From positions 64,001 to 74,884 of IMG/VR virus record IMGVR_UViG_3300001605_000025: a DNA stretch of 10,884 nt. One strand, written 5' to 3'. This DNA is from a virus (lineage: Duplodnaviria > Heunggongvirae > Uroviricota > Caudoviricetes). Of the stretch, positions 1 to 10,884 are shown piece by piece. Under the pieces are notes generated by a model. It searched no databases. It saw only the letters and a program-made list of their open reading frames with translations, and was not told where the DNA came from. The first letter of the stretch is position 1, and every line of letters begins with the position of its first letter. The position numbers and the translations under genes were made by a program.

Positions 1-76
1 ACCGTTAACAATGCCATCCTTTCGGAGGTATAAGCGTTTTCGGTAATTTAGCATGCTACCGTTACACCACAGACTC
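1..76 (-). tRNA. tRNA-like 5' half (acceptor 5' strand, D arm, start of anticodon arm) with a hairpin insertion; 3' half lies outside the window
   Basis: Minus strand from 76 reads GAGTCTG-TG-GTGT-AACGGTA-GCAT-G-CTAAA-TT-ACC-G: canonical U8/R9, a 4-bp D stem GTGT/GCAT and a D loop with GG. It is followed by a 44-nt GAAA-capped hairpin (44->1) instead of the anticodon 3' strand. Acceptor partner and T arm are not visible. Confidence 0.45.
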
Positions 77-80
77 ATTT

Positions 81-179
81 AACGGAGAGTACAGTCAAGC
101 ACGGCACGAATCCACATGTACCCAGTTAAGGGTACTTGGAGTTGAACCAAGAAGTATCCGTACTTTACGCTACTCCGTT
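81..179 (-). ncRNA. Structured RNA unit U5 (99 nt) containing a T-loop arm
   Basis: Outer stem AACGGAG/CTCCGTT (179-173/87-81); inner stem AAGTACGG/CCGTGCTT with one G-U (165-158/104-97); conserved TACTTC; T-arm CTTGG-TTCAACT-CCAAG (151-135) followed by hairpin TACCC-TTAACT-GGGTA. Confidence 0.75.
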
Positions 180-185
180 TTCTTT

Positions 186-311
186 AACAGAGGGAACATT
201 TGAATACAGAGGATTAGTTTAACGACATTTCGGTCGTCAGGGTTTGAACCTGATAGATCTCAAATATACGAGGTCATGTACCGAAGTATCTGTATTCAGT
301 GCCACTCTATC
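186..311 (-). ncRNA. Structured RNA unit U4 (126 nt) containing a T-loop arm
   Basis: Outer stem GATAGAG/CTCTGTT (two G-U); 10-bp stem TGAATACAGA/TCTGTATTCA (298-289/210-201); TAC then TTCGGT/ACCGAA helix enclosing hairpin GACCTC-GTATATTT-GAGATC and T-arm TCAGG-TTCAAAC-CCTGA (253-237). Confidence 0.75.
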
Positions 312-322
312 TTGTAATCATC

Positions 323-418
323 AGTAGGGAGAACGATCGAGAACGGGGTAACCTTTGCCCGGTCTAGCCGGAGGTCTTCGTACAGTGGTGAAGTATCCGT
401 TCTCTTTGCTACCCTATC
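323..418 (-). ncRNA. Structured RNA unit U3 (96 nt)
   Basis: Outer stem GATAGGG/CCCTACT (6 of 7 pairs); inner stem GAGAACGG/CCGTTCTC (404-397/346-339); TACTTC with TTC/GAA helix; second internal hairpin TCCGG-CTAGA-CCGGG. Confidence 0.7.
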
Positions 419-423
419 ATCTT

Positions 424-496
424 TCAGGAAGGTATAGGCCAGTACGGTGTTTAGTTCCAGTGTAAGTGAAGTAACCGTACTGTTTGCCATTCCTAC
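424..496 (-). ncRNA. Structured RNA unit U2 (73 nt)
   Basis: Outer stem GTAGGAA/TTCCTGA (6 of 7); 9-bp stem CAGTACGGT/ACCGTACTG (482-474/448-440) closing a 25-nt loop that starts TACTTC. Confidence 0.7.
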
Positions 497-514
497 ATTA
501 GCACCTCGGGGGAG

Positions 515-587
515 GTCGCAGGGTATAATCTAATACAGTATGATTTCAAGGTCAAGTAGAAGTAACTGTATTATTCGCCACTGCAGG
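515..587 (-). ncRNA. Structured RNA unit U1 (73 nt)
   Basis: Outer stem CCTGCAG/CTGCGAC (5 of 7); 9-bp stem TAATACAGT/ACTGTATTA (573-565/539-531) closing a 25-nt loop that starts TACTTC. Same geometry as U2. Confidence 0.7.
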
Positions 588-596
588 TACTACCGT

Positions 597-1592
597 TCAC
601 TCAAACATAACGTTGTCGAGTTTCTTAATTGCATTTGCAGTCTTAGCGGATTCAGGGTTAGCTGCAAATCCAGCAAACGACATGGAACGTCTCTTCCCGC
701 CATTTACCTTATCATCAGTTTCCATTGTCCGTCCCGCTGCAATAATATCATTTCCAGGACTTAAGGTATTAATCTCATCGTTCAGTTCACCATCAGCAGT
801 GAAACAAACCAGACCTTCCTGGAAAGTATCTGAATTCAGAACGATCATCATTCCTTTACCAGACTCACGAACTGAAACAATAGTCCCAGCTGTAACGACA
901 TGCTTGTTCTTCAGGATATCATTTACCGAAGCTAGATCTACAGCCATGTCATCCTTTCCGGCAACATCGTTAGCCAGCTTCCAGAACTCAGTATCTTCAA
1001 GCATCTTGATTACTTTCAGTCCTGGACCATCCTTCGGAACGGAAACATATCCTTTTTCTGAAGGTACACCGAAGATTGCATACTCATAACCGAGTTTACA
1101 ATCAAACGTTCCGAACACCCGGATGAATTTCTTCCCGATGATAAATAACGCTTCCCGTTGGATATTATCGCCTAACGGCTTACCCCAATTCCTATTCTTC
1201 ATCTTCTTAGTATCGGGGTCTAAGAACTCACGGTTATCCGCAGGAACGGGTTTATTATCCTTCATCATGAGCGTACCATCAGCATTGACAGCGACATACT
1301 TGCCACTGATAGCTTCAGTTGGATTCTGCTCATAGATCTCCATTGCCTTCCGCTTAGCGAAGTTATTCGAATCCTGCTTAGGACCGAACCCGATACATAC
1401 ACCGGTCAGTCTCTCAATCTTAGATCGTAAGATCTTACCAATTGCAAGTCGAATAGTCTTCTCAATGAAAGCATCATCCTCACCAGGATTCTGCTGGACA
1501 AGTGCAGCCTGAAGTGCTTTAACCTTCAGTTCCGCTTCCTTCTTATCCCATCCGCCCTTTACGAGCATTTCAACAAATGGTTTAGTCTGCAT
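597..1592 (-). CDS. 331-aa protein with probable C-terminal OB fold(s); putative single-stranded nucleic-acid-binding protein
   Basis: Longest ORF, RBS GAGGA 5 nt upstream. Helical N-terminus, then beta-rich; the C-terminal pattern (VVTAGTIVSVRE...MMIVLN...LVCF...LSPGNDIIAAGR) resembles the OB-fold strand order. CDS is secure; the function is pattern-based inference. Confidence 0.6.
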   Translation of the reverse strand: MQTKPFVEMLVKGGWDKKEAELKVKALQAALVQQNPGEDDAFIEKTIRLAIGKILRSKIERLTGVCIGFGPKQDSNNFAKRKAMEIYEQNPTEAISGKYVAVNADGTLMMKDNKPVPADNREFLDPDTKKMKNRNWGKPLGDNIQREALFIIGKKFIRVFGTFDCKLGYEYAIFGVPSEKGYVSVPKDGPGLKVIKMLEDTEFWKLANDVAGKDDMAVDLASVNDILKNKHVVTAGTIVSVRESGKGMMIVLNSDTFQEGLVCFTADGELNDEINTLSPGNDIIAAGRTMETDDKVNGGKRRSMSFAGFAANPESAKTANAIKKLDNVMFE

Positions 1593-1605
1593 TTAATTCC
1601 TCGTT

Positions 1606-1776
1606 TCATGGTTGCTTGTCAGTTATCGATGCTGTTGCGAGACCGAATACTGTTGCTCCGATCGTTGATACGATCATCACCGCAACAGCCGGTATCGTTC
1701 CACCATTAATTCCGTAAACGATTCCGAACACGAATAGTCCAGTTACTAATCCAAATACTATCTGAGTAGTATTCAT
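1606..1776 (-). CDS. 56-aa small membrane protein (two hydrophobic segments)
   Basis: Start refined to MNTTQ (ATGA overlap with the stop of 1773-2045); hydrophobic IVFGLVTGLFVFGIVYGI and IPAVAVMIVSTIGATVFGLA. Confidence 0.75.
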   Translation of the reverse strand: MNTTQIVFGLVTGLFVFGIVYGINGGTIPAVAVMIVSTIGATVFGLATASITDKQP

Positions 1777-2045
1777 AGTACCTTTACTCCAAGTTCTCTG
1801 AATGGTTTTCGCCAACATGAATGCGCATAGTATGTATTGCGTTCCCATTTAATCTGACAAAGGACTCCTTTATCAACCAACCGCATTAGATAGTATCGAG
1901 CCAATCGAATATCTATATTGAACATCTCCGCTACATCCGATAGCGTATAAGCTTCATCGATAGTCCAATCATTCAGTACGAAAAGTCCAATACGTTCACT
2001 CAGTATTTCGGTATAGAACGATGTTTCCATCTTCAAGTTGAACAC
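1773..2045 (-). CDS. Winged helix-turn-helix DNA-binding protein
   Basis: YTLSDVAEMFNIDIRLARYYLMRLVDKGVL followed by a beta-wing (CQIKWERNTYY) is a typical wHTH signature. Start may be GTG 2045 or ATG 2030. Confidence 0.75.
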   Translation of the reverse strand: MFNLKMETSFYTEILSERIGLFVLNDWTIDEAYTLSDVAEMFNIDIRLARYYLMRLVDKGVLCQIKWERNTYYAHSCWRKPFRELGVKVL

Positions 2046-2229
2046 CTACACCGAATTCTGGATGGTTGGAGAGATACTGATGTAACGAAACGTAAACGTT
2101 TTGTTTATCACGTCCAGTCTGGTCCACGTTAACCTTCAGCTTGTCCTTCTTTGCTTCCAAGAACGTAGCTACAATCTTTCGTGATTTGATTCGGCGTGGC
2201 AGCTTGGATGGTATTAACAAGTTCGTCAT
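1996..2229 (-). CDS. 77-aa basic hypothetical protein, possibly nucleic-acid-binding
   Basis: Perfect RBS GGAGGTGA 6 nt upstream of ATG; Lys/Arg-rich N-terminus. Confidence 0.75.
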   Translation of the reverse strand: MTNLLIPSKLPRRIKSRKIVATFLEAKKDKLKVNVDQTGRDKQNVYVSLHQYLSNHPEFGVGVQLEDGNIVLYRNTE

Positions 2230-2488
2230 ATAGTATCACCTCCCGCGATAATCGGAGTCCGAAGCCGATAAGGAGTTCTCTCGGAATTGCTTCGGTGGAT
2301 TCTGATGGTGGAACTGCAAACTGAATATCTAACGGAATCCCGTGTTCTCTACACTGAACTTTCAGTTTATACTTCAGGTCTGTAGTACTATCTTGTCTAC
2401 AGTGTATCCATAAAACTCCAGTCAGTTCAGTCCACGGTAATCGTTCAAATTGTACAGTCTGGTAGTTTCCGACCACCAGGAGGACCAT
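2129..2488 (-). CDS. Hypothetical protein (119 aa)
   Basis: ATG directly follows the TAA of the upstream gene, with GGGGAG RBS. The 3' 100 nt overlap the next gene. Confidence 0.6.
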   Translation of the reverse strand: MVLLVVGNYQTVQFERLPWTELTGVLWIHCRQDSTTDLKYKLKVQCREHGIPLDIQFAVPPSESTEAIPRELLIGFGLRLSREVILYDELVNTIQAATPNQITKDCSYVLGSKEGQAEG

Positions 2489-2821
2489 TTACTCCCCTTT
2501 CTGTTTCCGCTGTTTCGGGGGCTTCTCGTGATCGGTCAGTACAACAACCGCACCGGTCTTGTCCTTCCTAGTCTCATACATCCCATTGATCAGTGTACTA
2601 AAGTATGACTGATCAAGTTTGGCGTCCTCACCAATAAGTTTCTTAACGGCCTGGCGGAGAGTTGCCTGTGAAAGTTCAGTCATGTTCTGCTTTGCCTTTG
2701 CAGCAACAATGTTCCGAACATGTTCACGTATAATTCCTGCTTTCTCTCCTTTCACACCCTTTGCTGCCTGTTCTGCAGCAATAGAGTCATACAGGTCTGC
2801 AAGTTCAGTTGCTTTCGACAT
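2489..2821 (-). CDS. 110-aa basic helical protein, possible DNA-binding or chromatin-like; first gene after the TATA box
   Basis: Start refined to MSKAT (RBS GAGGA); Lys/Ala-rich with basic tail KPPKQRKQKGE. Confidence 0.7.
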   Translation of the reverse strand: MSKATELADLYDSIAAEQAAKGVKGEKAGIIREHVRNIVAAKAKQNMTELSQATLRQAVKKLIGEDAKLDQSYFSTLINGMYETRKDKTGAVVVLTDHEKPPKQRKQKGE

Positions 2822-2889
2822 AGTGTTTCCTCGGACGATTACGTCTGATAAAAATATCGTAATCTCCATAATATGATTGTACTTATTAG

Positions 2890-2897
2890 TATTTAAA
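2890..2897 (-). promoter_or_regulatory. Archaeal-type TATA box TTTAAATA
   Basis: Exact match to the TTTAWATA consensus in an AT-rich intergenic gap (2822-2899), about 70 nt upstream of the 2821 start. Confidence 0.6.
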
Positions 2898-2899
2898 TC

Positions 2900-3283
2900 T
2901 TATGATTTGTAAAGGACATTAAGATTTGAAAGGTAATGATAGTACGTGCTACCACATTCATTATCCTCGGAAACAGTAATAATGCGACCGGAAAGTGTGA
3001 TATGTTCCGTTATGACCTTCGAAATAGCTTTAGCCATCATCTCACACGATCCAGCGTCTGACTTGTTGATACAGAGAGGAAGTTTCTCGTTGATCGTCCG
3101 TTGAACTTGGTGAAACTCAAGTTCCCGATCGACAGCTGGATTGATAAAGATTTCAGCACGCCAATAGAATTTGTGACGGTGTGGTTCCCTCAGATATGAC
3201 ACGTCATCGGGAGCTCCAGGATAGTGGTGAAATGCAGTGAACGAACCCGTTACCCAGATAGACATACGTTCGATAGGAGTCAT
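2900..3283 (-). CDS. queD: QueD-like (6-pyruvoyl-tetrahydropterin synthase / T-fold) protein of the viral type
   Basis: Motifs F-x-A-F-H, P-H-R-H, D-R-E-L-E-F, S-C-E and V-S-E-D-x-x-x-G follow the PTPS/QueD Zn-binding layout; RBS GAGGT. Confidence 0.8.
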   Translation of the reverse strand: MTPIERMSIWVTGSFTAFHHYPGAPDDVSYLREPHRHKFYWRAEIFINPAVDRELEFHQVQRTINEKLPLCINKSDAGSCEMMAKAISKVITEHITLSGRIITVSEDNECGSTYYHYLSNLNVLYKS

Positions 3284-3423
3284 GGATACCTCACGTAATC
3301 ACTAACACAGTTACTTGGTCGTGATAGATTATCGTTTAGTTTATGTTGCTTGAAGCAACTCCAATGACGATCACTTCCGTATAGATTCATACAACTGTGG
3401 CACCACTTTTCTAGTTCAGTCAT
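3280..3423 (-). CDS. 47-aa Cys-rich microprotein (not in ORF track)
   Basis: MTELEKWCHSCMNLYGSDRHWSCFKQHKLNDNLSRPSNCVSDYVRYP; RBS GAGGGG; stop overlaps queD start (ATGA). Confidence 0.7.
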   Translation of the reverse strand: MTELEKWCHSCMNLYGSDRHWSCFKQHKLNDNLSRPSNCVSDYVRYP

Positions 3424-3567
3424 CTACCCCTCAACTATATAGTCGTCAACTATACTGATAACTTTATCCAGAACGTCTTTAGGAACGTCCTCACACGTAA
3501 TCCGTTTTACAAGTCTTGTTAACGGTGATACAAATATTAGTGCTAGTCTAGTAGTTGGTTCAGTCAT
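3424..3567 (-). CDS. 47-aa microprotein (not in ORF track)
   Basis: MTEPTTRLALIFVSPLTRLVKRITCEDVPKDVLDKVISIVDDYIVEG; ATGACTGA overlap with upstream stop; TAG abuts the next ATG. Confidence 0.7.
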   Translation of the reverse strand: MTEPTTRLALIFVSPLTRLVKRITCEDVPKDVLDKVISIVDDYIVEG

Positions 3568-3574
3568 GTTTATC
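3560..3574. repeat. 15-bp direct repeat TCAGTCATGTTTATC, copy 1 (copy 2 at 5759-5773)
   Basis: Exact match at two gene junctions, both reading ...D-K-H-D-stop / M-T... on the minus strand. Confidence 0.8.
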
Positions 3575-3880
3575 ATCTACTACTACCAGTATACGTTTAT
3601 CTTCCGGTATCAAGTTTATTATCTCATCGAACGTCGGTGCTGGCTTATCACCAAGGAATTCTTCCTTTAAGCGTCCCGCTGATCCAAATTCGTGTGTCCA
3701 CACTGGTCTCCCAAGTGTACTTTCAACTGCTTTATGAAACAGATCGAACGGCATACATAAACGTTTCGTAAATAGTTGAAACTCGACAATTTCACGATCG
3801 GTTTTTCCTTCCCACCACTTACTTTCAGCTAAGTGTATTGCCTGGTCTTTTGTCAGTTCGGTAACATCAGCTATCATCAT
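3560..3880 (-). CDS. Conserved-looking viral hypothetical protein (RPVWTHEF motif type)
   Basis: Start refined to MMIAD (RBS GGAG). The SKWW...FQLF...LCMPF...LGRPVWTHEFG pattern is familiar from uncharacterised phage proteins; function unknown. Confidence 0.75.
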   Translation of the reverse strand: MMIADVTELTKDQAIHLAESKWWEGKTDREIVEFQLFTKRLCMPFDLFHKAVESTLGRPVWTHEFGSAGRLKEEFLGDKPAPTFDEIINLIPEDKRILVVVDDKHD

Positions 3881-4010
3881 TATCTTCTCCGTATGGATCA
3901 ATCCACACGTTACACTTCTCCAGATATCCATCACACTGCTTACCAGTTAAGTCACAGATATTACAGTAAGCTGTTCGATCGTAATAGCTATACGGACAAC
4001 GGTTAGTCAT
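3867..4010 (-). CDS. 47-aa Cys-rich microprotein (not in ORF track)
   Basis: MTNRCPYSYYDRTAYCNICDLTGKQCDGYLEKCNVWIDPYGEDNDDS; ATGACTAA overlap with upstream stop. Confidence 0.7.
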   Translation of the reverse strand: MTNRCPYSYYDRTAYCNICDLTGKQCDGYLEKCNVWIDPYGEDNDDS

Positions 4011-4185
4011 TACGAATCACCAGTTTATATTCACGATAGCCGTCCAATGGTGACGTCAGCTCTCGTACAAGTGTTACTCTGTTCTCAGATATAGCACATG
4101 TAATCTTATCTAGATCAACGTTAGCTCTTCGTTTCTTAACGAACGTATTGATCTCTTTATCTGACATTTCAGATATATCAGTCAT
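4003..4185 (-). CDS. Hypothetical protein (60 aa)
   Basis: RBS GGTGA; coupled at both ends. Confidence 0.7.
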   Translation of the reverse strand: MTDISEMSDKEINTFVKKRRANVDLDKITCAISENRVTLVRELTSPLDGYREYKLVIRND

Positions 4186-4346
4186 TCTATCACCGGATCC
4201 CTTAGTCGATACACTATACCGTTCCCAGGGTTGATCGAACCCTCACACGATAAACATTTATACAACGTACCGTCTATCTGTTTCAGTAGTACGTTCAGTG
4301 CACCACATTCAGGACATCGTATAACTAGTCCATCAGTATAGTTCAT
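4182..4346 (-). CDS. 54-aa zinc-ribbon protein (not in ORF track)
   Basis: MNYTDGLVIRCPECGALNVLLKQIDGTLYKCLSCEGSINPGNGIVYRLRDPVIE; CPEC...CLSC; stop overlaps the 4185 start. Confidence 0.75.
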   Translation of the reverse strand: MNYTDGLVIRCPECGALNVLLKQIDGTLYKCLSCEGSINPGNGIVYRLRDPVIE

Positions 4347-4351
4347 AACGA

Positions 4352-4537
4352 TCAACCCGCCAGTTCAGCAAACAGAGTTTGAGCTTCATCGTGAGTCATA
4401 CAGCCTAATCGTTCACATGCCTGGAGGAATCCAGCAAGCATATTACGACAATTATAACGGTTACTCTCGTTCATTAGTCTAAAGTCTCCAAGTTCAGCAC
4501 AGAACTTTCTAACCTGTGGTTCGGCTTCAGTAGTCAT
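4352..4537 (-). CDS. Hypothetical protein (61 aa)
   Basis: ATGA overlap with upstream stop; fills the gene chain. Confidence 0.7.
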   Translation of the reverse strand: MTTEAEPQVRKFCAELGDFRLMNESNRYNCRNMLAGFLQACERLGCMTHDEAQTLFAELAG

Positions 4538-4692
4538 TTCATCAACTCTCTTACAATAATTTTACGAATCGATATATGTTTCTTTATATGGCATCTAGTA
4601 CATTCATATACTATACATATTTTCAGGTCATCAGGTGCGTAACCTTCATCCCAAGTATGTCCGAAAAAGAAACACGTTAGTTTGTCAGTCAT
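4534..4692 (-). CDS. 52-aa protein with C-x-F-F-G-H...C-x-R-C motif (DUF1660-like prophage Zn-binding protein)
   Basis: Start refined to MTDKLT (ATGACTGA overlap); LTCFFFGHTW...YECTRC matches the motif typical of that family. Confidence 0.65.
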   Translation of the reverse strand: MTDKLTCFFFGHTWDEGYAPDDLKICIVYECTRCHIKKHISIRKIIVRELMK

Positions 4693-4816
4693 CCTCGACA
4701 TAATCTGGTAACTCCTCACCGTCGTTAGCCCATTCGAACATCCAACTGTTGTGTGACATTAGTGTCTCAAACCACATATAGTCCCCAGACGGAACGTCAA
4801 CGATAGCTTTCTTCAC
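4685..4816 (-). CDS. 43-aa acidic microprotein (not in ORF track)
   Basis: GTG start, MKKAIVDVPSGDYMWFETLMSHNSWMFEWANDGEELPDYVEDD; GTGA overlap upstream and ATGACTGA overlap downstream. Confidence 0.65.
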   Translation of the reverse strand: MKKAIVDVPSGDYMWFETLMSHNSWMFEWANDGEELPDYVEDD

Positions 4817-4992
4817 GATAATCCCCTACAGAACTTACACATTGCTTCAGTTGGCTCACCACGTGAACGGCAGTCAGAACATATTAGTTCAACACACGGC
4901 CAGTCACCTTGACTTCTTCGTTGTGTCATATAATTACAGTATCCACAACCACACTTCGAGATACAGAAATCAACTAAGTCCTCATCGTTCAT
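4813..4992 (-). CDS. 59-aa protein with 9 Cys (not in ORF track)
   Basis: MNDEDLVDFCISKCGCGYCNYMTQRRSQGDWPCVELICSDCRSRGEPTEAMCKFCRGLS; RBS GGAG. Confidence 0.7.
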   Translation of the reverse strand: MNDEDLVDFCISKCGCGYCNYMTQRRSQGDWPCVELICSDCRSRGEPTEAMCKFCRGLS

Positions 4993-4993
4993 A

Positions 4994-5206
4994 TTACTGT
5001 CTCCAACGATACTGTGTACAGTCAGGAAATAGTATCTCAGCTATAGACTGTTGTAGTTTATTTCCTGACCGTGCTACTTCCTGCCACTCATCATCATGTC
5101 GCTTTCCAGGTACAGCATCAATATACGCCGCCCAGTCACCAACATCTTCATTAACCGAGGCTACAGCTATTACACGAGCTGATAACGCTCTATATCTACG
5201 AATCAT
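4994..5206 (-). CDS. Viral hypothetical protein (70 aa)
   Basis: ATGA overlap; globular-looking GDWAAY...G-x-KL...A-x-x-LFP pattern. Confidence 0.75.
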   Translation of the reverse strand: MIRRYRALSARVIAVASVNEDVGDWAAYIDAVPGKRHDDEWQEVARSGNKLQQSIAEILFPDCTQYRWRQ

Positions 5207-5544
5207 AGTCCAAGTTCCTTCACGGCATCTTCGAATGAGATACGCTTTCCAGTTCGTTCAACATGTTCAATATGTCTAAGTACCTTAAGTGTTCTCCCGA
5301 GATACTCAACATTAATCGTTTCGTTGTGTACCCAGATACGATATACGCTATACATCGTATTACTAATCATCTGGGTGTCGTATAACTTATCATCCAGATA
5401 ATCATGCATCTCCTGTTCAGACATTCCGTCTATAGCGTCACCGTTGACAAACTTTACCCACCTGGTCCTGTAGCGTTCCCAGCAAACATGTGGTCCTTCA
5501 ACAATACGCTTAATTCCAGATACTTCAATGTTTCCAAGCTTCAT
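5203..5544 (-). CDS. Hypothetical protein (113 aa)
   Basis: RBS GGAG upstream; coupled to the next gene. Confidence 0.75.
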   Translation of the reverse strand: MKLGNIEVSGIKRIVEGPHVCWERYRTRWVKFVNGDAIDGMSEQEMHDYLDDKLYDTQMISNTMYSVYRIWVHNETINVEYLGRTLKVLRHIEHVERTGKRISFEDAVKELGL

Positions 5545-5559
5545 CTAGTTCATCTCCAG

Positions 5560-5766
5560 TTAGATACTCTTAGCATCATTTAACGCTTCACATGCCTCAT
5601 CCAATGTATAAAGTTCATACTGGTCCTGTATATCACCAACGAACTTATCTCTAATTTTTTCAGGACAGTTATCGAACATGTGAACAAGCAAGTCGTACTC
5701 ATCAACACCATCGGTTGCGAGTAACGCATCAACAATATCTTCAGCAGTAGTACTTATGTCAGTCAT
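5560..5766 (-). CDS. 68-aa acidic hypothetical protein
   Basis: Start refined to MTDIST (ATGACTGA overlap with the 5759 stop). Confidence 0.7.
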   Translation of the reverse strand: MTDISTTAEDIVDALLATDGVDEYDLLVHMFDNCPEKIRDKFVGDIQDQYELYTLDEACEALNDAKSI

Positions 5767-5773
5767 GTTTATC
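5759..5773. repeat. 15-bp direct repeat TCAGTCATGTTTATC, copy 2
   Basis: See copy 1. Confidence 0.8.
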
Positions 5774-5968
5774 CTTCTGTAACTTATCAAACGGACATAC
5801 GTTTTGTTCATCACGTGAAGAACAATACATTGGTATATCTCCGTATTCGCAATCTACTTCACCACTTGCTTCGTACTTTCGTTTCCCAGCAAACGGGCAT
5901 TCCGGATATACATATACATTCGGAATACAGTCTGGATATGTTGTTAGTCTAACTTTTGCCATTATCAT
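5759..5968 (-). CDS. 69-aa Cys-containing hypothetical protein
   Basis: RBS GGAGGT; five Cys (two CPF motifs). Confidence 0.7.
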   Translation of the reverse strand: MIMAKVRLTTYPDCIPNVYVYPECPFAGKRKYEASGEVDCEYGDIPMYCSSRDEQNVCPFDKLQKDKHD

Positions 5969-5974
5969 ACCTCC

Positions 5975-6226
5975 TTACGTATACCAGTACCCATCAACGC
6001 CTGATATAACAGCAACGTCTACAGGTGCCGTCGTAACATTCTTACAACGATCTAACCACTCGAGTATACTCGGGCATTCATCATACTCATCATCAAGATG
6101 ATCATCGTACCAATCTTCTGAGAATCTATTATACTCTTCAACGTACTCAGCCATCTTTAGACCTTCTTTACGATCGATGTAGAAGGTCGCATATACCTCC
6201 CCTTCGATCATCATTACCATTATCAC
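5975..6226 (-). CDS. Acidic hypothetical protein (up to 83 aa)
   Basis: RBS GAGGAGG upstream; exact start among GTG/ATG codons is uncertain. Confidence 0.7.
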   Translation of the reverse strand: MIMVMMIEGEVYATFYIDRKEGLKMAEYVEEYNRFSEDWYDDHLDDEYDECPSILEWLDRCKNVTTAPVDVAVISGVDGYWYT

Positions 6227-6239
6227 TTAACGGTCCTCC

Positions 6240-6255
6240 TCGGGGATATCCCCGA
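6240..6255. promoter_or_regulatory. Perfect 16-bp palindrome TCGGGGATATCCCCGA abutting the RBS of 5975-6226
   Basis: The sequence is its own reverse complement, is intergenic, and its last bases overlap GAGGAGG on the minus strand. Confidence 0.55.
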
Positions 6256-6256
6256 A

Positions 6257-6302
6257 TACCCCTTTCCGGATTGAACCGGATTACCTAACAGTAAAAAGGG
6301 TA
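6257..6302 (-). ncRNA. 46-nt three-way-junction RNA element with T-loop-like arm (may double as terminator or processing signal)
   Basis: TACCCTTT | TTAC-TGTTAG-GTAA | TCCGG-TTCAAT-CCGGA | AAGGGGTA: 8-bp closing stem (one G-U, favouring minus strand), 4-bp and 5-bp hairpins, no linkers. Confidence 0.55.
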
Positions 6303-6304
6303 GA

Positions 6305-7090
6305 TTAGGTCACACACGCTGATCTACTAACTCCCTTACAGATATTCTGTCTCGGAACGATCCGTGACTCGATCTCACGATCAACCTCAACTATCGGAAC
6401 GTCAGTCGACCAGTCTGACCATTCTGTCCAATGATCCTCAGATACTGGTACCCATTCACAGTATGCAGGTGTATCGATAACGATCCGTACAGTAGTTCTC
6501 TCCGTACATCGTTTCGTACCGTAACAACTATCTAGACAGTATCCTTCCTCCCACGGAGATGTTATAACCCATCCAGCTTTCGTATACGTCTCTATCTGTC
6601 TCTCCGTTATCCGTTCCTCATGGCTAACTTCAGGATGACAAACTTCCTGTAGTTCACCCTTAACGAAATCACGGAAACGATACTCTGTGTGTTCCAGGAT
6701 AACACAGTCAGGCTTAGTATGATTAACCTTCGGGGAGACTGCAGCTCCAAGAAGCGAAACGTATGTTATTCCATTCTCAACGTAGAAGTCTAGCTTCTCT
6801 TCCTGGTTAGCGTTACCATTCCGTATGTGTACAGTCCACCAACCAGTATCTAGATCGATCAATTCCGTTCTCCCATCTGGAAGAACTGTTCCTTTAATAA
6901 ATTCAACATTCTGGTTCTCGATTTCAGTTCTATCCGGATGGTACATCGAGTCAAATGGAGTCGTATTAGATCCAAAGTACACAGTTGTATCCTGAGCAGA
7001 TCCTCCAGCTCGAAGTATCACCATGACTGATCCTGCTGTAACAGGATTAACACACATCAATATCAGTACGATTAGTAGTTCTCGTTTCAT
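6305..7090 (-). CDS. 261-aa exported or surface protein with N-terminal signal peptide
   Basis: MKR + hydrophobic LLIVLILMCV + PVTA cleavage-like site; beta-rich domain, then a Cys/Trp/Glu-rich region; RBS GGTGTGA. Confidence 0.75.
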   Translation of the reverse strand: MKRELLIVLILMCVNPVTAGSVMVILRAGGSAQDTTVYFGSNTTPFDSMYHPDRTEIENQNVEFIKGTVLPDGRTELIDLDTGWWTVHIRNGNANQEEKLDFYVENGITYVSLLGAAVSPKVNHTKPDCVILEHTEYRFRDFVKGELQEVCHPEVSHEERITERQIETYTKAGWVITSPWEEGYCLDSCYGTKRCTERTTVRIVIDTPAYCEWVPVSEDHWTEWSDWSTDVPIVEVDREIESRIVPRQNICKGVSRSACVT

Positions 7091-7094
7091 GTTA

Positions 7095-7265
7095 TCACAC
7101 CGTTAGTACTAAAGTTTCTTCTCCACAAACGTTACAACGGTATCGTAGATGGTAATCTTCCCATCCGATAACCGTAATGTTTATGCTTCCACACTGTATA
7201 CAAATTAATTGCCCTATAGCACAGAGGAATATTCTGTACAGTCGGACTACCCAATCAATCATCAT
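7095..7265 (-). CDS. 56-aa zinc-ribbon protein (not in ORF track)
   Basis: MMIDWVVRLYRIFLCAIGQLICIQCGSINITVIGWEDYHLRYRCNVCGEETLVLTV; CIQC...CNVC; ATGA overlap. Confidence 0.7.
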   Translation of the reverse strand: MMIDWVVRLYRIFLCAIGQLICIQCGSINITVIGWEDYHLRYRCNVCGEETLVLTV

Positions 7266-7441
7266 ACTGGATCTTCCGTTAACATATTTCCGACATCCTC
7301 CAGGATACGGAGCATTAAGTCTAGTCCATCAGTTCGTATATCGATACCTTCTTCAACATCATAACGGAAGTATGCCGCTATCACACGGATGCCTTCCGTT
7401 CCGTACTTCTGTTTCAGTTGTTCAACTGTCATCTTTCCCAT
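7262..7441 (-). CDS. 59-aa hypothetical protein (not in ORF track)
   Basis: MGKMTVEQLKQKYGTEGIRVIAAYFRYDVEEGIDIRTDGLDLMLRILEDVGNMLTEDPV; RBS GGAGG. Confidence 0.75.
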   Translation of the reverse strand: MGKMTVEQLKQKYGTEGIRVIAAYFRYDVEEGIDIRTDGLDLMLRILEDVGNMLTEDPV

Positions 7442-7613
7442 ATGTTAATCCTCCTATTAACTCTGATACGTGATCGTCACAAACTCTCAGTACTCTCATC
7501 AGATCAGGGCTAACTTTATGCCAGCCTTCTAACGTAGCATCGTTCTGACAGCTGGTAACCTGACACTTACCGTGTGTCAGTACTTCTTGATTACATGTTG
7601 GACATCGTTTCAT
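7422..7613 (-). CDS. 63-aa Cys/His zinc-binding protein
   Basis: Start refined to MKRCPTC (RBS GAGGA); CPTC, CQVTSC, CDDH motifs. Confidence 0.7.
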   Translation of the reverse strand: MKRCPTCNQEVLTHGKCQVTSCQNDATLEGWHKVSPDLMRVLRVCDDHVSELIGGLTYGKDDS

Positions 7614-7674
7614 AACGTTCCTCAATAGTTTCACCAGTTGTTCCTGTTCAAAAGTATAGCCGAACCATAACAGT

Positions 7675-8469
7675 CTAGCAGCAGCAGTTACCATATGGCT
7701 GTCCACACATCGAACAGACGTGACCTGCTTTCCTTTCGTTCTCAAGTCGTTCTAGATGTTTCGTCCAACATCCCACACATACCTTTCCGGCGAACAACGG
7801 TCGTCCAGCACACCCATCCTCACGGAAAGTTTTGTGACAAGTAGTGCAGCGGAACTTCTTTCCGTTAGCCAGTTCCTCCATTAGTTTAAATATCTGTTCC
7901 GGATCCTGAATCGCAAGAAGCTTCTCGTCAATATCTAACGGAAAAGTTGTATGTCCTTTATCGATCCAGGTACAGACACTAGGCATCGAATGACGCATCG
8001 TAACGTGATGTCCACCGTAATTAGGTTTCGTGTGGAATCCGTAATCAGATCTTCCGATCCACACAACATTTCCGTTCTTCATATACTCCAAGTTCGAATC
8101 GTAGTGTAGTTCTCCTCTCCAGGTTGACCGTTGATCAATACCTCTCAGTAAATGTCCAGATGTATCGTCGTGAGCACATGTTGAACAGAGAACCTGGTTT
8201 GTCTCCATATCAATCATTGGTGTGTTATACGAAGCATTCTTTCCACAACGTTCACATGTTAGTTTAGTTTTGAGTTCACGAACGTCAATCAGGTTGTCCA
8301 ATTGTTCCTGAAGACGTCTCATTAGATTCCAATCATCATCGTTTCTACCTTTACTATACTGTAGTTCGTCTATCTTTAAACGTAAGACAGTCCAGATCTG
8401 ATCATAATCTGTTTCATTGATCTGATCTAGTTTATAGTCACCATTCAGTATCTGATCAATCGTAAACAT
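7675..8469 (-). CDS. 264-aa multi-zinc-finger protein
   Basis: RBS GGAGGT; CERC/CSTC, CTTC/CVGC, CSMC...CCC terminus. Confidence 0.8.
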   Translation of the reverse strand: MFTIDQILNGDYKLDQINETDYDQIWTVLRLKIDELQYSKGRNDDDWNLMRRLQEQLDNLIDVRELKTKLTCERCGKNASYNTPMIDMETNQVLCSTCAHDDTSGHLLRGIDQRSTWRGELHYDSNLEYMKNGNVVWIGRSDYGFHTKPNYGGHHVTMRHSMPSVCTWIDKGHTTFPLDIDEKLLAIQDPEQIFKLMEELANGKKFRCTTCHKTFREDGCAGRPLFAGKVCVGCWTKHLERLENERKAGHVCSMCGQPYGNCCC

Positions 8470-8481
8470 AGTAACCTCCAG

Positions 8482-8631
8482 TTACCAACTTTTCGGGCAC
8501 CTATCGTATCCACAACGTTTCTCTTCACTCTTTGCCTGTACTAACAGTTTACAGTGTGGATCACGACCAGGTCTATTAATCGACTGATCACAATGTCTAG
8601 CCTCGTGAATCCACTTAACTAACGTCATCAT
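8482..8631 (-). CDS. 49-aa Cys-containing microprotein (not in ORF track)
   Basis: MMTLVKWIHEARHCDQSINRPGRDPHCKLLVQAKSEEKRCGYDRCPKSW; ATGA overlap. Confidence 0.65.
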   Translation of the reverse strand: MMTLVKWIHEARHCDQSINRPGRDPHCKLLVQAKSEEKRCGYDRCPKSW

Positions 8632-8867
8632 GGTAGTTCATCTTCCACAAGCTTCCATGCTTTGTCAATAGCATCACGCTTATCCTTACCAGCTTTAGAT
8701 CGTTCATGGTTCAACCATGATAATATCTGGTAACGATCTTGTCCTTTAATCACACAACTCAGTATTCCATCTAGTGTCTCCACCCAAATAGCATCGGCTA
8801 CTGAATTACCAAAAACAGACCGAACTTTCGCAGTCTGTATTATCGTCACGATATCATCACGTTTCAC
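8628..8867 (-). CDS. Hypothetical protein (79 aa)
   Basis: GTG start 3 nt after upstream stop, with GAGGAGG RBS. Confidence 0.7.
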   Translation of the reverse strand: MKRDDIVTIIQTAKVRSVFGNSVADAIWVETLDGILSCVIKGQDRYQILSWLNHERSKAGKDKRDAIDKAWKLVEDELP

Positions 8868-8870
8868 ATA

Positions 8871-9152
8871 CTAGACCTCCTCACTAGCATCTTTAAGGAA
8901 TAATACTCTTGCAATACGAAACGCTTCTGCTGTACAGTAATTAGCAGTCTCTTGTTTTAAACCGTCACGTCTAAGTGATTCATGGTACTCAAGATACTCA
9001 GCTTCTTTCTTGATAAGTAGTTTAATATACCAGCAGAATGACTTCCATTCACTGATACACTCCGGATAGTCCTCATCTTGGTTCCACTCACATACTGAAC
9101 AGTTACCAAGTTCCAGTAGATCCGGTCGTCTACATGTATTAAAACTTACCAT
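8871..9152 (-). CDS. 93-aa protein with Cys-rich N-terminus
   Basis: RBS GGAGGT; six Cys. Confidence 0.75.
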   Translation of the reverse strand: MVSFNTCRRPDLLELGNCSVCEWNQDEDYPECISEWKSFCWYIKLLIKKEAEYLEYHESLRRDGLKQETANYCTAEAFRIARVLFLKDASEEV

Positions 9153-9166
9153 CTAACCTCCCAAGA

Positions 9167-9502
9167 TCACTCTAGATTATGTCCGTACTCAATGAACTCA
9201 TCTCCAAATGGATTTGGATCGTCTTGATCTGGACAGAACATTATTCCGCCAACCTCAATCACATCATCAATCGTAACTGGTCGTCTATTACCAGCTGCAG
9301 GTCCAGGGATAAACATTCTTAGATAGATCAGGTCACCAGTCTTCTCGTTAAAGTTAAACTCAACTTTATCTCCAACTTGGGGACAAGTTTGAGCCATACG
9401 TTCTTTAGATCGTTTAGTGTCAGTTAGAAACATATCGTTATCGATAAATATAGCGTCGTCTTCTATAGCTGTAACGATTCCAGTCTTGTTATTATAACTC
9501 AT
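9167..9502 (-). CDS. 111-aa protein with a small OB/cold-shock-like beta barrel and acidic tail
   Basis: RBS AGGAGG; GIVTAIEDDAIFID...PQVGDKVEFNF...LIYL resembles a small OB barrel. Fold is inferred. Confidence 0.6.
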   Translation of the reverse strand: MSYNNKTGIVTAIEDDAIFIDNDMFLTDTKRSKERMAQTCPQVGDKVEFNFNEKTGDLIYLRMFIPGPAAGNRRPVTIDDVIEVGGIMFCPDQDDPNPFGDEFIEYGHNLE

Positions 9503-9511
9503 ACCTTCCTC

Positions 9512-9715
9512 CTAATCATCGATTAGATAGACAAACTGTCCAGATGGAGCACCACGTACACAACCTGGATGCTTTCTTAAATACGTTGTTACGGTATCCC
9601 ATTCAGCTGGTTCACCAGTACCTATTTCACATATATGAAGAAAGCACTTCGAAACTTCAGCTTCTTTACATGGGTAGAACTTAAAGTCTCCAGCTGGTCT
9701 AAAGTAGAATGTCAT
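9512..9715 (-). CDS. Hypothetical protein (67 aa)
   Basis: RBS GGAG. Confidence 0.7.
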   Translation of the reverse strand: MTFYFRPAGDFKFYPCKEAEVSKCFLHICEIGTGEPAEWDTVTTYLRKHPGCVRGAPSGQFVYLIDD

Positions 9716-9726
9716 CTACAATCTCC

Positions 9727-9870
9727 TTACCGATCTTTCCGTCCACATACGGGACAGCAGTATATGTATCCCCACCTTTCGTTCTCTCCATCCCACTCCT
9801 CCCATATCTCAACGTCCATACGTGCCTTCACACCGTAATGTTCACACGATTCACAGTATCGGTCAGTCAT
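9727..9870 (-). CDS. 47-aa zinc-ribbon microprotein (not in ORF track)
   Basis: MTDRYCESCEHYGVKARMDVEIWEEWDGENERWGYIYCCPVCGRKDR; CESC...CPVC; ATGA overlap. Confidence 0.75.
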   Translation of the reverse strand: MTDRYCESCEHYGVKARMDVEIWEEWDGENERWGYIYCCPVCGRKDR

Positions 9871-10091
9871 CGAACGTCTCCGTACCGTTCAAACATCTCA
9901 TAATAACAATCAATACGGTCACAAATATCATCAACCAGATCAAGTTCACTATCACGGGTAACTTCATCGTGCATCAAACCAACAATATACATCACTGTAG
10001 GATAGTATAATGTAAGAGACTCCGTACTGTAGTCCATTTCTATCCAATACGTCTCGGTAGTACCATCGTAAAAACTATGAGTAACTATCAT
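9867..10091 (-). CDS. 74-aa acidic hypothetical protein
   Basis: Start refined to MIVTHS (RBS GGAG, ATGA overlap). Confidence 0.7.
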   Translation of the reverse strand: MIVTHSFYDGTTETYWIEMDYSTESLTLYYPTVMYIVGLMHDEVTRDSELDLVDDICDRIDCYYEMFERYGDVR

Positions 10092-10306
10092 CTGAAGTCT
10101 CCTAACATTGGTGGTCCACACGTCACGGATTCGGCAGATGCCCAGACTACCATATTACAGTTTCGACAGTGTAACCGGTACATTCCAGCTTGACTATCCC
10201 AACCGATCATATCGTACGTTCCTTTACAGTAATCACACCATAACAACTGGTAACCCCAGTGTTTCGGTTCCGGAATGTCCGGTAGTAAATCAGCTAGTCT
10301 CGTCAT
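10088..10306 (-). CDS. 72-aa zinc-ribbon protein
   Basis: CDYC...CRNC. Confidence 0.75.
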   Translation of the reverse strand: MTRLADLLPDIPEPKHWGYQLLWCDYCKGTYDMIGWDSQAGMYRLHCRNCNMVVWASAESVTCGPPMLGDFR

Positions 10307-10312
10307 AGTAAA

Positions 10313-10468
10313 CTACCTGGCTGGCTTGCGAACAATATACTCTCCATTTTCCATCCTTTTGATTTCCTCATCGGTCAAATCAAACTCTGCGGATTTCATC
10401 AATTCAATATGATCCGTGACAAAGTTCAAAGTACCAAGTGGTTTCCCGTTTCTTGCGAAAAATATCAT
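10313..10468 (-). CDS. 51-aa hypothetical protein (not in ORF track)
   Basis: MIFFARNGKPLGTLNFVTDHIELMKSAEFDLTDEEIKRMENGEYIVRKPAR; ATGA overlap. Confidence 0.7.
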   Translation of the reverse strand: MIFFARNGKPLGTLNFVTDHIELMKSAEFDLTDEEIKRMENGEYIVRKPAR

Positions 10469-10857: not shown

Positions 10858-10884
10858 AAATTCACAATCTGCTTTCCCTTCCCC

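What the first reader, a model, noticed from the sequence alone, without database searches (positions are those of the whole stretch)
81..587. Tandem array of five homologous, covarying stem-loop RNA units downstream of the OB-fold gene (candidate new ncRNA family or system)
Seen directly: five minus-strand units (U1 587-515, U2 496-424, U3 418-323, U4 311-186, U5 179-81) separated by only 5-18 nt. Their 24-nt 5' segments align without gaps: AGTGGCGAATAATACAGTTACTTC, AATGGCAAACAGTACGGTTACTTC, GGTAGCAAAGAGAACGGATACTTC, AGTGGCACTGAATACAGATACTTC, AGTAGCGTAAAGTACGGATACTTC. Their 17-nt 3' segments also align: CTGTATTAGATTATACC, CCGTACTGGCCTATACC, CCGTTCTCGATCGTTCT, CTGTATTCAAATGTTCC, CCGTGCTTGACTGTACT. 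The two segments pair in 8-10 bp stems whose sequences differ but stay complementary (TACAG/CTGTA, TACGG/CCGTA, AACGG/CCGTT, TACGG/CCGTG with G-U). The base after the bulged T covaries perfectly (G..C in U1/U2/U4, A..T in U3/U5). The invariant TACTTC opens a variable domain of 25-78 nt, usually through a TTC/GAA helix. Inference: a constant scaffold carrying variable cargo, co-transcribed with a viral operon, could be a set of decoy, protein-binding or guide RNAs. It fits neither CRISPR, TIGR, C/D nor ToxI arrays that I know.
Basis: partly seen in the sequence, partly recalled or inferred. Interest (0 to 1): 0.92.

Follow-up and report, generated by a model that had tools for sequence, protein, structure and literature searches.

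The report
Y RNA array of a viral Ro60
The five stem-loop units are real, covarying small-RNA genes, but they are Y RNAs, the known RNA partners of the Ro60 protein, whose gene lies about 500 bases beyond the window edge, so this is a large and divergent example of a known system and not a new one.

Summary
Five minus-strand units (window 585-517, 495-425, 416-325, 311-186, 179-81) share one scaffold: an outer stem with a bulged U, a 4x7-nt internal loop, an 8-bp inner stem and an invariant UACUUC. In six paralogues 96% of cells pair and 12 of 17 pairs show compensatory changes.

The "new ncRNA family" reading does not hold. The array continues past window position 1, giving eight modules in all. 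It ends about 45 nt upstream of a Ro60/Rsr gene (TROVE 2e-30 plus Ro60 vWA) on the same strand.

A covariance model of the scaffold hits 161 places (E<1) in 90 other Ro60 loci, 160 of them on the Ro60 strand. Where Rfam YrlA scores below threshold in those loci, its hits lie inside mine. The motifs fit published YrlA features (GNCGAA-like loop, YUAY).

The nearest solved protein is Thermus phage phiLo Ro60. That protein binds two upstream phage Y-like RNAs and recruits host PNPase.

U1 and U2 are short and YrlB-like. U4 and U5 carry T arms and are degenerate YrlA-like.

Ro60 binding and expression are inferred, not shown. This scan reached the same reading earlier on adjacent windows of this genome. 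Verdict: new member of a known kind, moderate interest.

The parts
517..585 (-). U1: short (69 nt) Y RNA-like unit, YrlB-like. It has the exact GGCGAA motif at 579-574, UACUUC at 564-559, and a pyrimidine-rich 11-nt loop closed by UUC/GAA.
   Evidence: Descriptor scan; model R1 69.3 bits; MFE equals the proposed scaffold, z -3.33; motif positions.
425..495 (-). U2: short (71 nt) Y RNA-like unit, YrlB-like. UACUUC lies at 473-468. Its head is a small hairpin with a 7-nt loop, CUUACAC.
   Evidence: R1 79.2 bits; MFE z -3.29.
325..416 (-). U3: 92-nt Y RNA-like unit. UACUUC lies at 395-390. The head has two hairpins (CUUC/GAAG and CCGG/CCGG) and no T arm.
   Evidence: R1 68.1 bits; MFE z -1.77.
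186..311 (-). U4: 126-nt Y RNA-like unit with a tRNA-like head. It has a T arm at 253-237 (5-bp stem, loop UUCAAAC) followed by a hairpin at 236-223. UACUUC lies at 288-283. No canonical D arm is present.
   Evidence: R1 63.6 bits; T-arm detector; coordinates; MFE z -3.58.
81..179 (-). U5: 99-nt Y RNA-like unit with a tRNA-like head. It has a T arm at 151-135 (loop UUCAACU), an acceptor-like closed hairpin at 135-118, then a GG-containing single strand. UACUUC lies at 156-151.
   Evidence: R1 69.9 bits; MFE z -4.14.
1..76 (-). 5' two-thirds of a sixth element (genome 64076-63952), which runs off the window. It is tRNA-shaped (acceptor stem, D arm, T arm). The same scaffold sits between the D arm and a hairpin that starts in UACUUC, but it is circularly permuted and its outer stem is capped by GAAA.

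Best explanation
U1-U5 are five of eight Y RNA genes (bacterial YrlA/YrlB kind). They fill the 1.1-kb gap between an OB-fold gene and the virus's own Ro60/Rsr gene, all on one strand.

Most likely mechanism:
1. The region is transcribed as one precursor and cut into 70-130-nt RNAs.
2. In each RNA the 5' and 3' ends pair into the conserved scaffold: outer stem with a bulged U, an internal loop with a C-G/A-A/U-A 5' strand, an 8-bp inner stem and the UACUUC junction. This scaffold docks on the outer face of the viral Ro60 ring.
3. The variable head binds a second factor. The heads are a short pyrimidine-rich loop in U1 and U2, two hairpins in U3, and a T arm plus closed acceptor-like hairpin in U4 and U5.
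4. The RNAs would thereby gate the Ro60 cavity and tether Ro60 to host proteins. One candidate is a 3'-5' exoribonuclease, as in the Ro60-Y RNA-PNPase machine of Deinococcus, Salmonella and Thermus phage phiLo.

Shown here: the structure, its covariation, family membership by scaffold, and a tight co-oriented association with Ro60 genes. Inferred: transcription, processing, Ro60 binding and the identity of the effectors.
For: (1) The ORF at genome 63496-61973, on the same strand, is Ro60: Pfam TROVE 2.1e-30 and vWA_Ro60 3.4e-10. Its best solved relative is Thermus phage phiLo Ro60 (9KOP/9L5Y, E 2.4e-34), followed by D. radiodurans Rsr.

(2) All eight copies of the 5' motif lie in the gap upstream of that gene. 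Model R1 hits only there in the whole genome.

(3) Covariation among the paralogues: 96% of cells paired and 12 of 17 pairs compensatory.

(4) R1 finds 168 places at E<1 in 91 loci: 7 in the virus's own array and 161 in 90 other loci chosen only for encoding Ro60. All but one of those 161 lie on the Ro60 strand. They are often tandem, for example 8 in L018. R1 also hits Chryseobacterium, Flavobacterium, Mucilaginibacter, a Methanocella MAG, and the unannotated gap after the TROVE gene of crAss001.

(5) Family alignment of 116 units from 61 loci: 94.3% of cells paired, all 17 pairs vary on both sides, covariation score 0.92 against 0.24 shuffled and 0.13-0.18 slid. UACUUC is 97-100% invariant and the 5' side of the loop reads C-G-U-A.

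(6) Link to the named family: Rfam YrlA RF02553 scores 30-46 bits, below its 69-bit threshold, inside R1 hits in L006, L018 (four times), L083 and L073. The L006 unit carries near-consensus YrlA T arm, closed acceptor hairpin, UA linker and D arm inside the R1 scaffold.

(7) Published YrlA features fit: a GNCGAA(N)G motif near the 5' end, YUAY opening the variable loop, a tRNA-like head, location within a few kb of Ro60 on the same strand, and processing from polycistronic precursors (PMC4201824). The conserved UA makes a kink at the top of the stem (bioRxiv 10.1101/312249).

(8) Unit lengths are bimodal, 70-80 and 130-140 nt. A strict T arm is found in 33 of 68 long units and 1 of 48 short ones, matching the YrlA/YrlB split.

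(9) Direct precedent in a phage: phiLo Ro60 binds two upstream Y-like RNAs that carry a CGAA internal loop, and forms a ternary complex with host PNPase (PMC12135203).
Against: - Rfam finds no family in the units even at E<=10, and YrlA RF02553 finds nothing in the whole genome.
- Only U1 has the exact GGCGAA motif. U2-U5 read GGCAAA, AGCAAA, GGCACU and AGCGUA.
- U4 and U5 lack the conserved YrlA D arm.
- The family-wide alignment was fitted to my own model, so its pair counts lean towards the structure. The invariance of UACUUC is partly selected by a seed in which it is invariant.
- No transcript data exist, and no protein-RNA binding was or could be tested here.
- Association with Ro60 was measured only in loci fetched because they encode Ro60. 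The strand bias and the E-values, not the proximity, carry the weight.
Confidence: 0.83

Rival explanations
1. The scaffold is a real RNA module, but another factor recognises it, not Ro60. Candidates are a processing nuclease, a tRNA-modifying or CCA-adding enzyme, or a second viral protein. Ro60 would then only be a neighbour acting on the same RNAs in another way, for example through its central cavity.
For: Family-wide, the most invariant element is UACUUC (97-100%), not the CGAA-type loop proposed to contact Ro60. In the literature only the 5' strand motif is tied to Ro60 contact. No binding test was possible.
Against: The scaffold and Ro60 genes travel together and co-oriented from viruses to Bacteroidota, with 160 of 161 hits outside this genome on the Ro60 strand. 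The phiLo Ro60 binds RNAs of the same stem, internal loop, stem design.
Confidence: 0.07
2. This is a new, Ro60-independent RNA system. A constant handle would present variable heads that act as guides or decoys against host or competitor nucleic acids.
For: The heads are highly variable on a constant handle. There is no Rfam hit.
Against: The longest matches of the heads to the rest of the virus genome (9-12 nt) equal those of shuffled heads, which average 10-11.5 nt. Other genomes were not searched for targets. The handle is the one found beside Ro60 genes in 90 other loci and encloses YrlA hits there. The heads fall into the two known Y RNA classes.
Confidence: 0.04
3. The units are decayed tRNA genes or tRNA-derived punctuation: leftovers of a viral tRNA cluster that still fold and serve only as RNase P/Z processing sites.
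For: U4 and U5 have good T arms. The neighbouring elements are tRNA-shaped. The relative L013 has three normal tRNAs in the same gap.
Against: ARAGORN finds no tRNA in the window or its flank, and none in the whole genome without its intron option. U1-U3 have no tRNA arm at all. The conserved, covarying part is the non-tRNA scaffold, which is kept across distant genomes, and that argues for selection on it.
Confidence: 0.04
4. The repeats act as DNA, as iterons or protein-binding sites near a replication gene, and the apparent RNA structure is incidental.
For: The array sits next to an OB-fold (RPA/SSB-like) gene.
Against: Pairing is kept through compensatory changes while the sequence drifts, including G-U pairs that are valid only on the minus-strand RNA. 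The motif occurs on one strand only.
Confidence: 0.02

Closest known systems
Bacterial and phage YrlA / YrlB Y RNAs (Chen et al. 2014, PMC4201824; Rfam RF02553; YrlA structure, bioRxiv 10.1101/312249)
   Same: They are encoded within about 1 kb of Ro60 on the same strand. The 5' and 3' ends pair into a long stem. A GNCGAA-like motif sits on the 5' strand of an internal loop. A Y/W-UAC motif lies at the top of the stem and opens the variable region. There are two classes: short hairpins (as U1 and U2) and tRNA-like heads with a T arm and a closed acceptor-like hairpin (as U4 and U5). In related loci the same scaffold encloses sub-threshold YrlA hits.
   Different: The Rfam model finds nothing here at E<=10. 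The loop motif is degenerate in four of the five units. U4 and U5 lack the conserved D arm. There are eight modules in one array, against the two to five small RNAs per locus in the papers I could read. Two neighbouring modules are circularly permuted inside complete tRNA shapes.
Thermus phage phiLo Ro60 with Yrl1 and Yrl2 (PMC12135203; PDB 9KOP, 9L5Y)
   Same: It is a virus-encoded Ro60 and the best solved relative of this one (E 2.4e-34). Y-like RNAs lie directly upstream. They have a stem, internal loop, stem design with a CGAA motif. Binding was shown in vitro and a ternary complex forms with host PNPase.
   Different: phiLo has two RNAs, not eight. No tRNA-like heads turned up in the passages I read. 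Its host is a thermophilic bacterium, whereas the host here is unknown and possibly archaeal.
Deinococcus radiodurans Yrn1/Yrn2 and metazoan Y RNAs
   Same: These are Ro60-bound RNAs of about 100 nt with a terminal stem carrying a bulged helix and a variable effector module. [quoted passage not shown]
   Different: Their conserved helix (GGUCCGA with a bulged C, both strands conserved) is not the one found here. Rfam Y_RNA gives no hit.
tRNA
   Same: U4 and U5 have T arms with a UUCRANN loop. The adjacent elements have acceptor, D and T arms.
   Different: U1-U5 have no acceptor ends, D arm or anticodon arm. ARAGORN finds no tRNA in the window and Rfam's tRNA model does not hit U1-U5.

Membership tests
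Y RNA, bacterial YrlA/YrlB kind | Encoded close to a Ro60/Rsr (TROVE) gene, on the same strand | tested here: met
   The Ro60 ORF starts at genome 63496 (window -504) on the minus strand. U1-U5 lie 585-1090 nt upstream, and the array continues to about 45 nt from the ATG.
Y RNA, bacterial YrlA/YrlB kind | Long stem formed by pairing of the 5' and 3' ends, interrupted by a bulge or internal loop | tested here: met
   17 pairs; 96% of cells paired in paralogues and 94% in 116 family members; the stems recur in the MFE fold of each unit.
Y RNA, bacterial YrlA/YrlB kind | GNCGAA(N)G / CGAA motif on the 5' strand of the stem (proposed Ro60 contact) | tested here: inconclusive
   Exact in U1 (GGCGAA, 579-574). 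Degenerate in U2-U5 (GGCAAA, AGCAAA, GGCACU, AGCGUA). The consensus of the R1 family is G-N-C-G-U-A-G.
Y RNA, bacterial YrlA/YrlB kind | Conserved YUAY at the top of the stem, opening the variable loop | tested here: met
   UUAC in U1 and U2, AUAC in U3-U5. The UAC is 97-100% conserved family-wide and is followed by invariant UUC.
Y RNA, bacterial YrlA/YrlB kind | YrlA only: a tRNA-like head with T arm, closed acceptor-like hairpin and D arm of conserved sequence | tested here: inconclusive
   U4 and U5 have a T arm plus the following hairpin but no recognisable D arm. U1-U3 have none of these and fit YrlB. A related unit in L006 has all of them.
Y RNA, bacterial YrlA/YrlB kind | Scores above the gathering threshold of Rfam RF02553 | tested here: not met
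   No match at E<=10 in the genome. In related loci YrlA reaches 30-46 bits against a threshold of 69, inside R1 hits. The model appears narrow, so failing it does not exclude membership of the wider family.
Y RNA, bacterial YrlA/YrlB kind | Physically bound and stabilised by Ro60 | not testable with these tools
   Needs immunoprecipitation or a gel-shift assay. No RNA data are available.
tRNA | Cloverleaf with open acceptor stem, D, anticodon and T arms | tested here: not met
   ARAGORN finds 0 genes in the window. Rfam tRNA has no hit in U1-U5.
CRISPR or other repeat-spacer guide arrays | Identical direct repeats separating unique spacers, with spacers that match targets | tested here: not met
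   The units differ in sequence but keep their pairing. The heads match the rest of the genome no better than shuffles do.

The most novel reading that the evidence does not exclude
The eight Y RNAs are an adaptor kit. One constant Ro60 handle would carry different heads, each recruiting a different host factor, such as an exoribonuclease or exosome, tRNA-modifying enzymes, or the translation apparatus. The tRNA-like ones (U4, U5 and the two complete tRNA shapes next to them) would double as decoys or sensors for host tRNA-targeting defences. If the host is an archaeon, as the replication genes of this virus and its relatives suggest, this would be the first Ro60-Y RNA particle defined for an archaeal virus. 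The circularly permuted tRNA-framed modules would then mark the path from tRNA to Y RNA.
Probability: 0.15. Interest if true: 0.7.

Novelty: new member of a known kind. Interest (0 to 1): 0.36.

Why it matters
Ro60 and its Y RNAs are conserved from bacteria to humans and are a major lupus and Sjogren autoantigen, yet what the variable Y RNA heads recruit is known in only a few cases.

This virus packs eight differently headed Y RNAs in front of its own Ro60. That makes it a compact natural test set for the "one handle, many adaptors" model and for why viruses carry Ro60 at all.

The practical gain is a covariance model of the handle. It recovers Y RNA candidates beside Ro60 genes where Rfam's YrlA model is silent, including an unannotated gap in the cultured phage crAss001. 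It also shows that UACUUC is the most conserved element of the family.

The claim of a new RNA system should be dropped.

Tried and rejected
- ARAGORN found no tRNA or tmRNA in the window or the flank, and none in the whole genome without its intron option. With introns allowed it called three "tRNAs with introns": two are the neighbouring tRNA-shaped elements outside the finding, and the third (genome 25003-27477, a 2.4-kb intron) I take to be spurious.
- Rfam at gathering threshold on the window, and at E<=10 on window 1-700, gave nothing relevant. RF02553 found nothing in the whole genome at E<=10.
- blastn of window 1-1600 against 50,697 phage records: no match.
- The search for related loci with the single Ro60 protein in viral contigs: none.
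- Sequencing runs: no RNA holder listed. The only full holders are four DNA runs of one hydrocarbon metagenome sample, which may be the source.
- Guide hypothesis: the longest exact matches of the variable heads to the rest of the genome do not exceed those of shuffles.
- The sigma-70 promoter and intrinsic-terminator scan of the array was not above shuffles. It is uninformative if the host is archaeal.
- Upstream 331-aa ORF: no Pfam or PHROG hit and no tblastn hit in any other fetched locus. Only a weak Atlas lead to archaeal RPA/SSB-type OB folds.
- HGTV-1 (Halogranum virus, the best Ro60 hit among cultured viruses, 33% identity): no R1 hit at E<0.1 within 3 kb of its TROVE gene.
- The two Wolin reviews (PMC10870794, PMC6047535) are not held. 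I therefore could not check what they say about array size or permuted forms.

Full report
OBSERVATION. Reading the minus strand of window 1-700 confirms five adjacent units. The gaps between them are 21, 8, 13 and 6 nt.

Each unit has, in order:
- an outer stem of 5-7 bp;
- a bulged U;
- two further pairs (GG/CC or AG/CU);
- an asymmetric internal loop, with 5' side C-R-A-A-like (4 nt) and 3' side GAYYRUW-like (7 nt);
- W-UACUUC, which opens a variable head.

On the alignment of these five plus a sixth open unit just outside the window (A2), 96.1% of cells pair. This compares with 72.8% after shuffling and 37-51% with slid partners. Twelve of 17 pairs change on both sides, and 0 of 500 shuffles reach the covariation score. 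The 21-nt 5' motif occurs exactly eight times in the 74.9-kb genome, always on the minus strand between genome 64579 and 63666. Folded alone, each unit returns the two stems, and U1 and U2 the exact scaffold, with z-scores from -1.8 to -4.1.

The window is the last 10.9 kb of a 74,884-bp IMG/VR virus record with direct terminal repeats. With the genome laid out, the structured region continues past window position 1.

- A tRNA-shaped element lies at genome 64076-63952; its first 76 nt are window 76-1.
- A sixth open unit lies at genome 63932-63862.
- An unassigned hairpin-rich stretch follows.
- A second tRNA-shaped element lies at genome 63753-63623.
- A tRNA-like RNA without an anticodon loop lies at about genome 63610-63535.
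- An ORF then starts at genome 63496.

That ORF (507 aa) is Ro60/Rsr: Pfam TROVE 2.1e-30 and Ro60-type vWA 3.4e-10. Its nearest solved relatives are the Ro60 of Thermus phage phiLo (E 2.4e-34) and D. radiodurans Rsr. All of this lies on the minus strand, as do essentially all long ORFs of the window.

WHAT THE UNITS ARE. I built a covariance model (R1) from the six open units with the hand-derived structure. I searched it against loci fetched only because they encode a Ro60 relative: 10 viral contigs, 80 metagenome contigs, and later named genomes.

- At E<1 it found 168 places in 91 loci: 7 in this virus's own array and 161 in the 90 other loci.
- All but one of those 161 lie on the Ro60 strand.
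- The hits are commonly tandem, with eight in L018 and four each in L006, L011, L019, L029, L072, L073 and L084.
- It also hits beside Ro60 in Chryseobacterium defluvii, Flavobacterium pectinovorum, Mucilaginibacter, a Clostridium MAG and a Methanocella MAG.
- It hits three times in the unannotated 900-bp gap after the TROVE gene of Bacteroides phage crAss001.
- In this virus's own genome it hits only the array.

The model-guided alignment of 116 units from 61 loci keeps 94.3% of cells paired. All 17 pairs vary on both sides, and the covariation score is 0.92 against 0.24 shuffled and 0.13-0.18 slid. This alignment was fitted to the model, so the numbers lean its way; the slid controls are the fairer comparison. 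In that alignment UACUUC is 97-100% invariant and the 5' side of the loop reads C-G-U-A after G-N.

LINK TO THE NAMED FAMILY. Rfam has a YrlA model (RF02553, 114 positions, threshold 69 bits). It finds nothing in this genome at E<=10 and nothing at threshold in 20 related loci. With the permissive threshold it scores 30-46 bits in L006, L018 (four times), L083, L073, L104 and L125. In L006, L018, L083 and L073 those hits lie inside R1 hits.

In L006 the unit 2499-2631 has my scaffold on the outside. Inside it are a T arm, a closed acceptor-like hairpin, a UA linker and a D arm that match the YrlA consensus almost letter for letter. Three shorter R1 units follow it in tandem.

Chen et al. 2014 define YrlA/YrlB by several features (PMC4201824):
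- a GNCGAA(N)G motif near the 5' end, thought to contact Ro60;
- YUAY opening the variable loop;
- a tRNA-like head in YrlA and a short hairpin with a pyrimidine-rich loop in YrlB;
- location within a few kb of Ro60 on the same strand;
- polycistronic synthesis.

The crystal structure paper places the conserved UA at a kink at the top of the stem that leads to the Ro60-binding module.

The units here fit this description. U1 has GGCGAA exactly, and the others carry degenerate versions. UUAC or AUAC sits where YUAY should. U1 and U2 (and the sixth unit) are short with pyrimidine-rich loops. U4 and U5 carry T arms (window 253-237 and 151-135), each followed by a closed hairpin.

Across the family, unit lengths are bimodal, 70-80 and 130-140 nt. 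A strict T arm is present in 33 of 68 long units but 1 of 48 short ones. U4 and U5 lack the conserved D arm, which explains why the Rfam model misses them.

MECHANISM. The best-supported model is the known one. [quoted passage not shown] The head binds an effector. The RNA both gates the Ro60 cavity and tethers Ro60 to a partner such as PNPase.

A direct viral precedent exists. Thermus phage phiLo Ro60 binds two Y-like RNAs encoded just upstream. Each has a 5'-3' stem around an internal loop with CGAA. The protein and RNAs assemble with host PNPase, which the authors propose as a way to subvert host RNA processing (PMC12135203).

What is shown here is structure, homology of the scaffold and genomic association. 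Transcription, processing and binding are inferred. One caution: the most invariant element is UACUUC, not the CGAA-type loop, so which part Ro60 reads remains open. I keep a 7% rival in which another factor reads the scaffold.

RIVALS REJECTED.
- DNA iterons are excluded by compensatory changes, by G-U pairs valid on one strand only, and by strict strand bias.
- Guide RNAs: the heads match the rest of the virus genome no better than shuffled heads do. Host genomes could not be tested because the host is unknown.
- Decayed tRNAs: no tRNA is detected in U1-U5, and the conserved part is the non-tRNA scaffold.
- The upstream 331-aa gene gives only a weak lead to archaeal RPA/SSB-type OB folds and is not found beside arrays elsewhere, so it is a neighbour and not a component.

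NOVELTY. Y RNAs next to Ro60 in bacteria and phages have been known since 2014, and phage Ro60 with upstream Y-like RNAs was characterised in 2025. This is therefore a new member of a known kind. Four things are unusual:
- The number of modules: eight, with six open units at E<1e-4, the most among the 61 loci in A3.
- The divergence from the Rfam model.
- The possible archaeal host. Relatives L093 and L094 carry an MCM helicase upstream of their arrays, and a Methanocella MAG has the same architecture. I did not test the host.
- The two neighbouring tRNA-shaped RNAs, in which the same scaffold is circularly permuted and capped by a tetraloop (GAAA, AAGA). The same form appears in L003, L008 and the Methanocella MAG L103. 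These lie mostly outside the coordinates I was given. I did not find this form in the Y RNA papers I could read, but the two main reviews are not held.

EARLIER NOTES OF THIS SCAN. After I had reached the Ro60/Y RNA reading, the notebook of the scan showed that agents working on adjacent windows of this same genome had reached it too (e1-1889593, e1-1685127, e1-1889594, e1-1889595). I re-derived the eight modules, the two tRNA-framed forms and the YrlA link independently. I confirmed R1-type units in crAss001. I did not find any in HGTV-1 within 3 kb of its TROVE gene.

VERDICT. The interpretation as a new system is not supported. The units are Y RNAs of a virus-encoded Ro60. Interest is moderate (0.36): an ordinary family, but an unusually rich and divergent locus and a useful scaffold model.

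Noticed in passing
window 1-76 (-), continuing to genome 63952: A complete tRNA shape (acceptor stem, D arm, T arm, discriminator A). The Y RNA scaffold is inserted between the D arm and a hairpin with a 7-nt loop, CUGUGGA. The scaffold is circularly permuted and closed by a GAAA tetraloop. A second such element (AAGA cap, loop CUUCCAC) lies at genome 63753-63623.
   Followed up: partly
L003:2743-2867, L008:2656-2777, L008:2785-2908, L103:1879-2005, L103:2262-2387: The same tRNA-framed, capped scaffold with UACUUC recurs upstream of distant Ro60 genes, including a Methanocella MAG. In L008:2785-2908 the module sits at the tip of an intact anticodon stem (CCAGG...CCUGG) and not beside a separate hairpin.
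   Followed up: partly
L178:4445-4530, 4539-4619, 5018-5167 (Bacteroides phage crAss001, MH675552.1): Three matches to the scaffold model lie in the unannotated 900-bp gap directly downstream of the TROVE gene gp96. These are candidate, unannotated Y RNAs in a cultured phage.
   Followed up: partly
L013:718-950: In the closest relative with flanking DNA (Ro60 60% identical), one tRNA-shaped element carries an insertion of about 150 nt that ends in the scaffold's 5' segment and UACUUC. Three ordinary tRNA genes follow before Ro60.
   Followed up: no
genome 63855-63760 and 63610-63535 (outside the window): Two further structured elements lie between the array and Ro60. One is a long hairpin closed by GUGACAGGU/ACCUGUCAU. 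The other is a tRNA-like RNA with acceptor stem and T arm but a 13-nt loop in place of an anticodon loop (Rfam tRNA-Sec model 29.4 bits, below threshold).
   Followed up: partly
window 597-1592 (-): This 331-aa ORF has no Pfam or PHROG hit. The ESM Atlas features point weakly (0.80-0.84, lead only) to archaeal RPA/SSB-type OB-fold proteins. No homologue lies beside the arrays in other loci.
   Followed up: partly
window 3560-3934 (-): A 124-aa ORF with a DUF7736 domain (Pfam 7e-14) and PHROG 13999/23870 hits of unknown function.
   Followed up: no
window 9167-9502 (-): A 111-aa ORF with a sub-threshold S1-like match (Pfam PF14444, E 0.004, 17.5 bits against a cutoff of 25.2). A small RNA-binding protein would be of interest in a virus with a Ro60 system.
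   Followed up: no
window 501-10884: GC skew is negative in every 500-nt bin from 501 onward, and essentially all long ORFs are on the minus strand. This is one long co-directional gene block running into the Y RNA array and Ro60.
   Followed up: no
L093:1-1281, L094:1-1186: Relatives with Ro60 58-60% identical carry an MCM-family helicase (MCM_OB, MCM, MCM_lid) about 1-2 kb upstream of their Y RNA arrays. This fits an archaeal-type replication module in this virus group.
   Followed up: no
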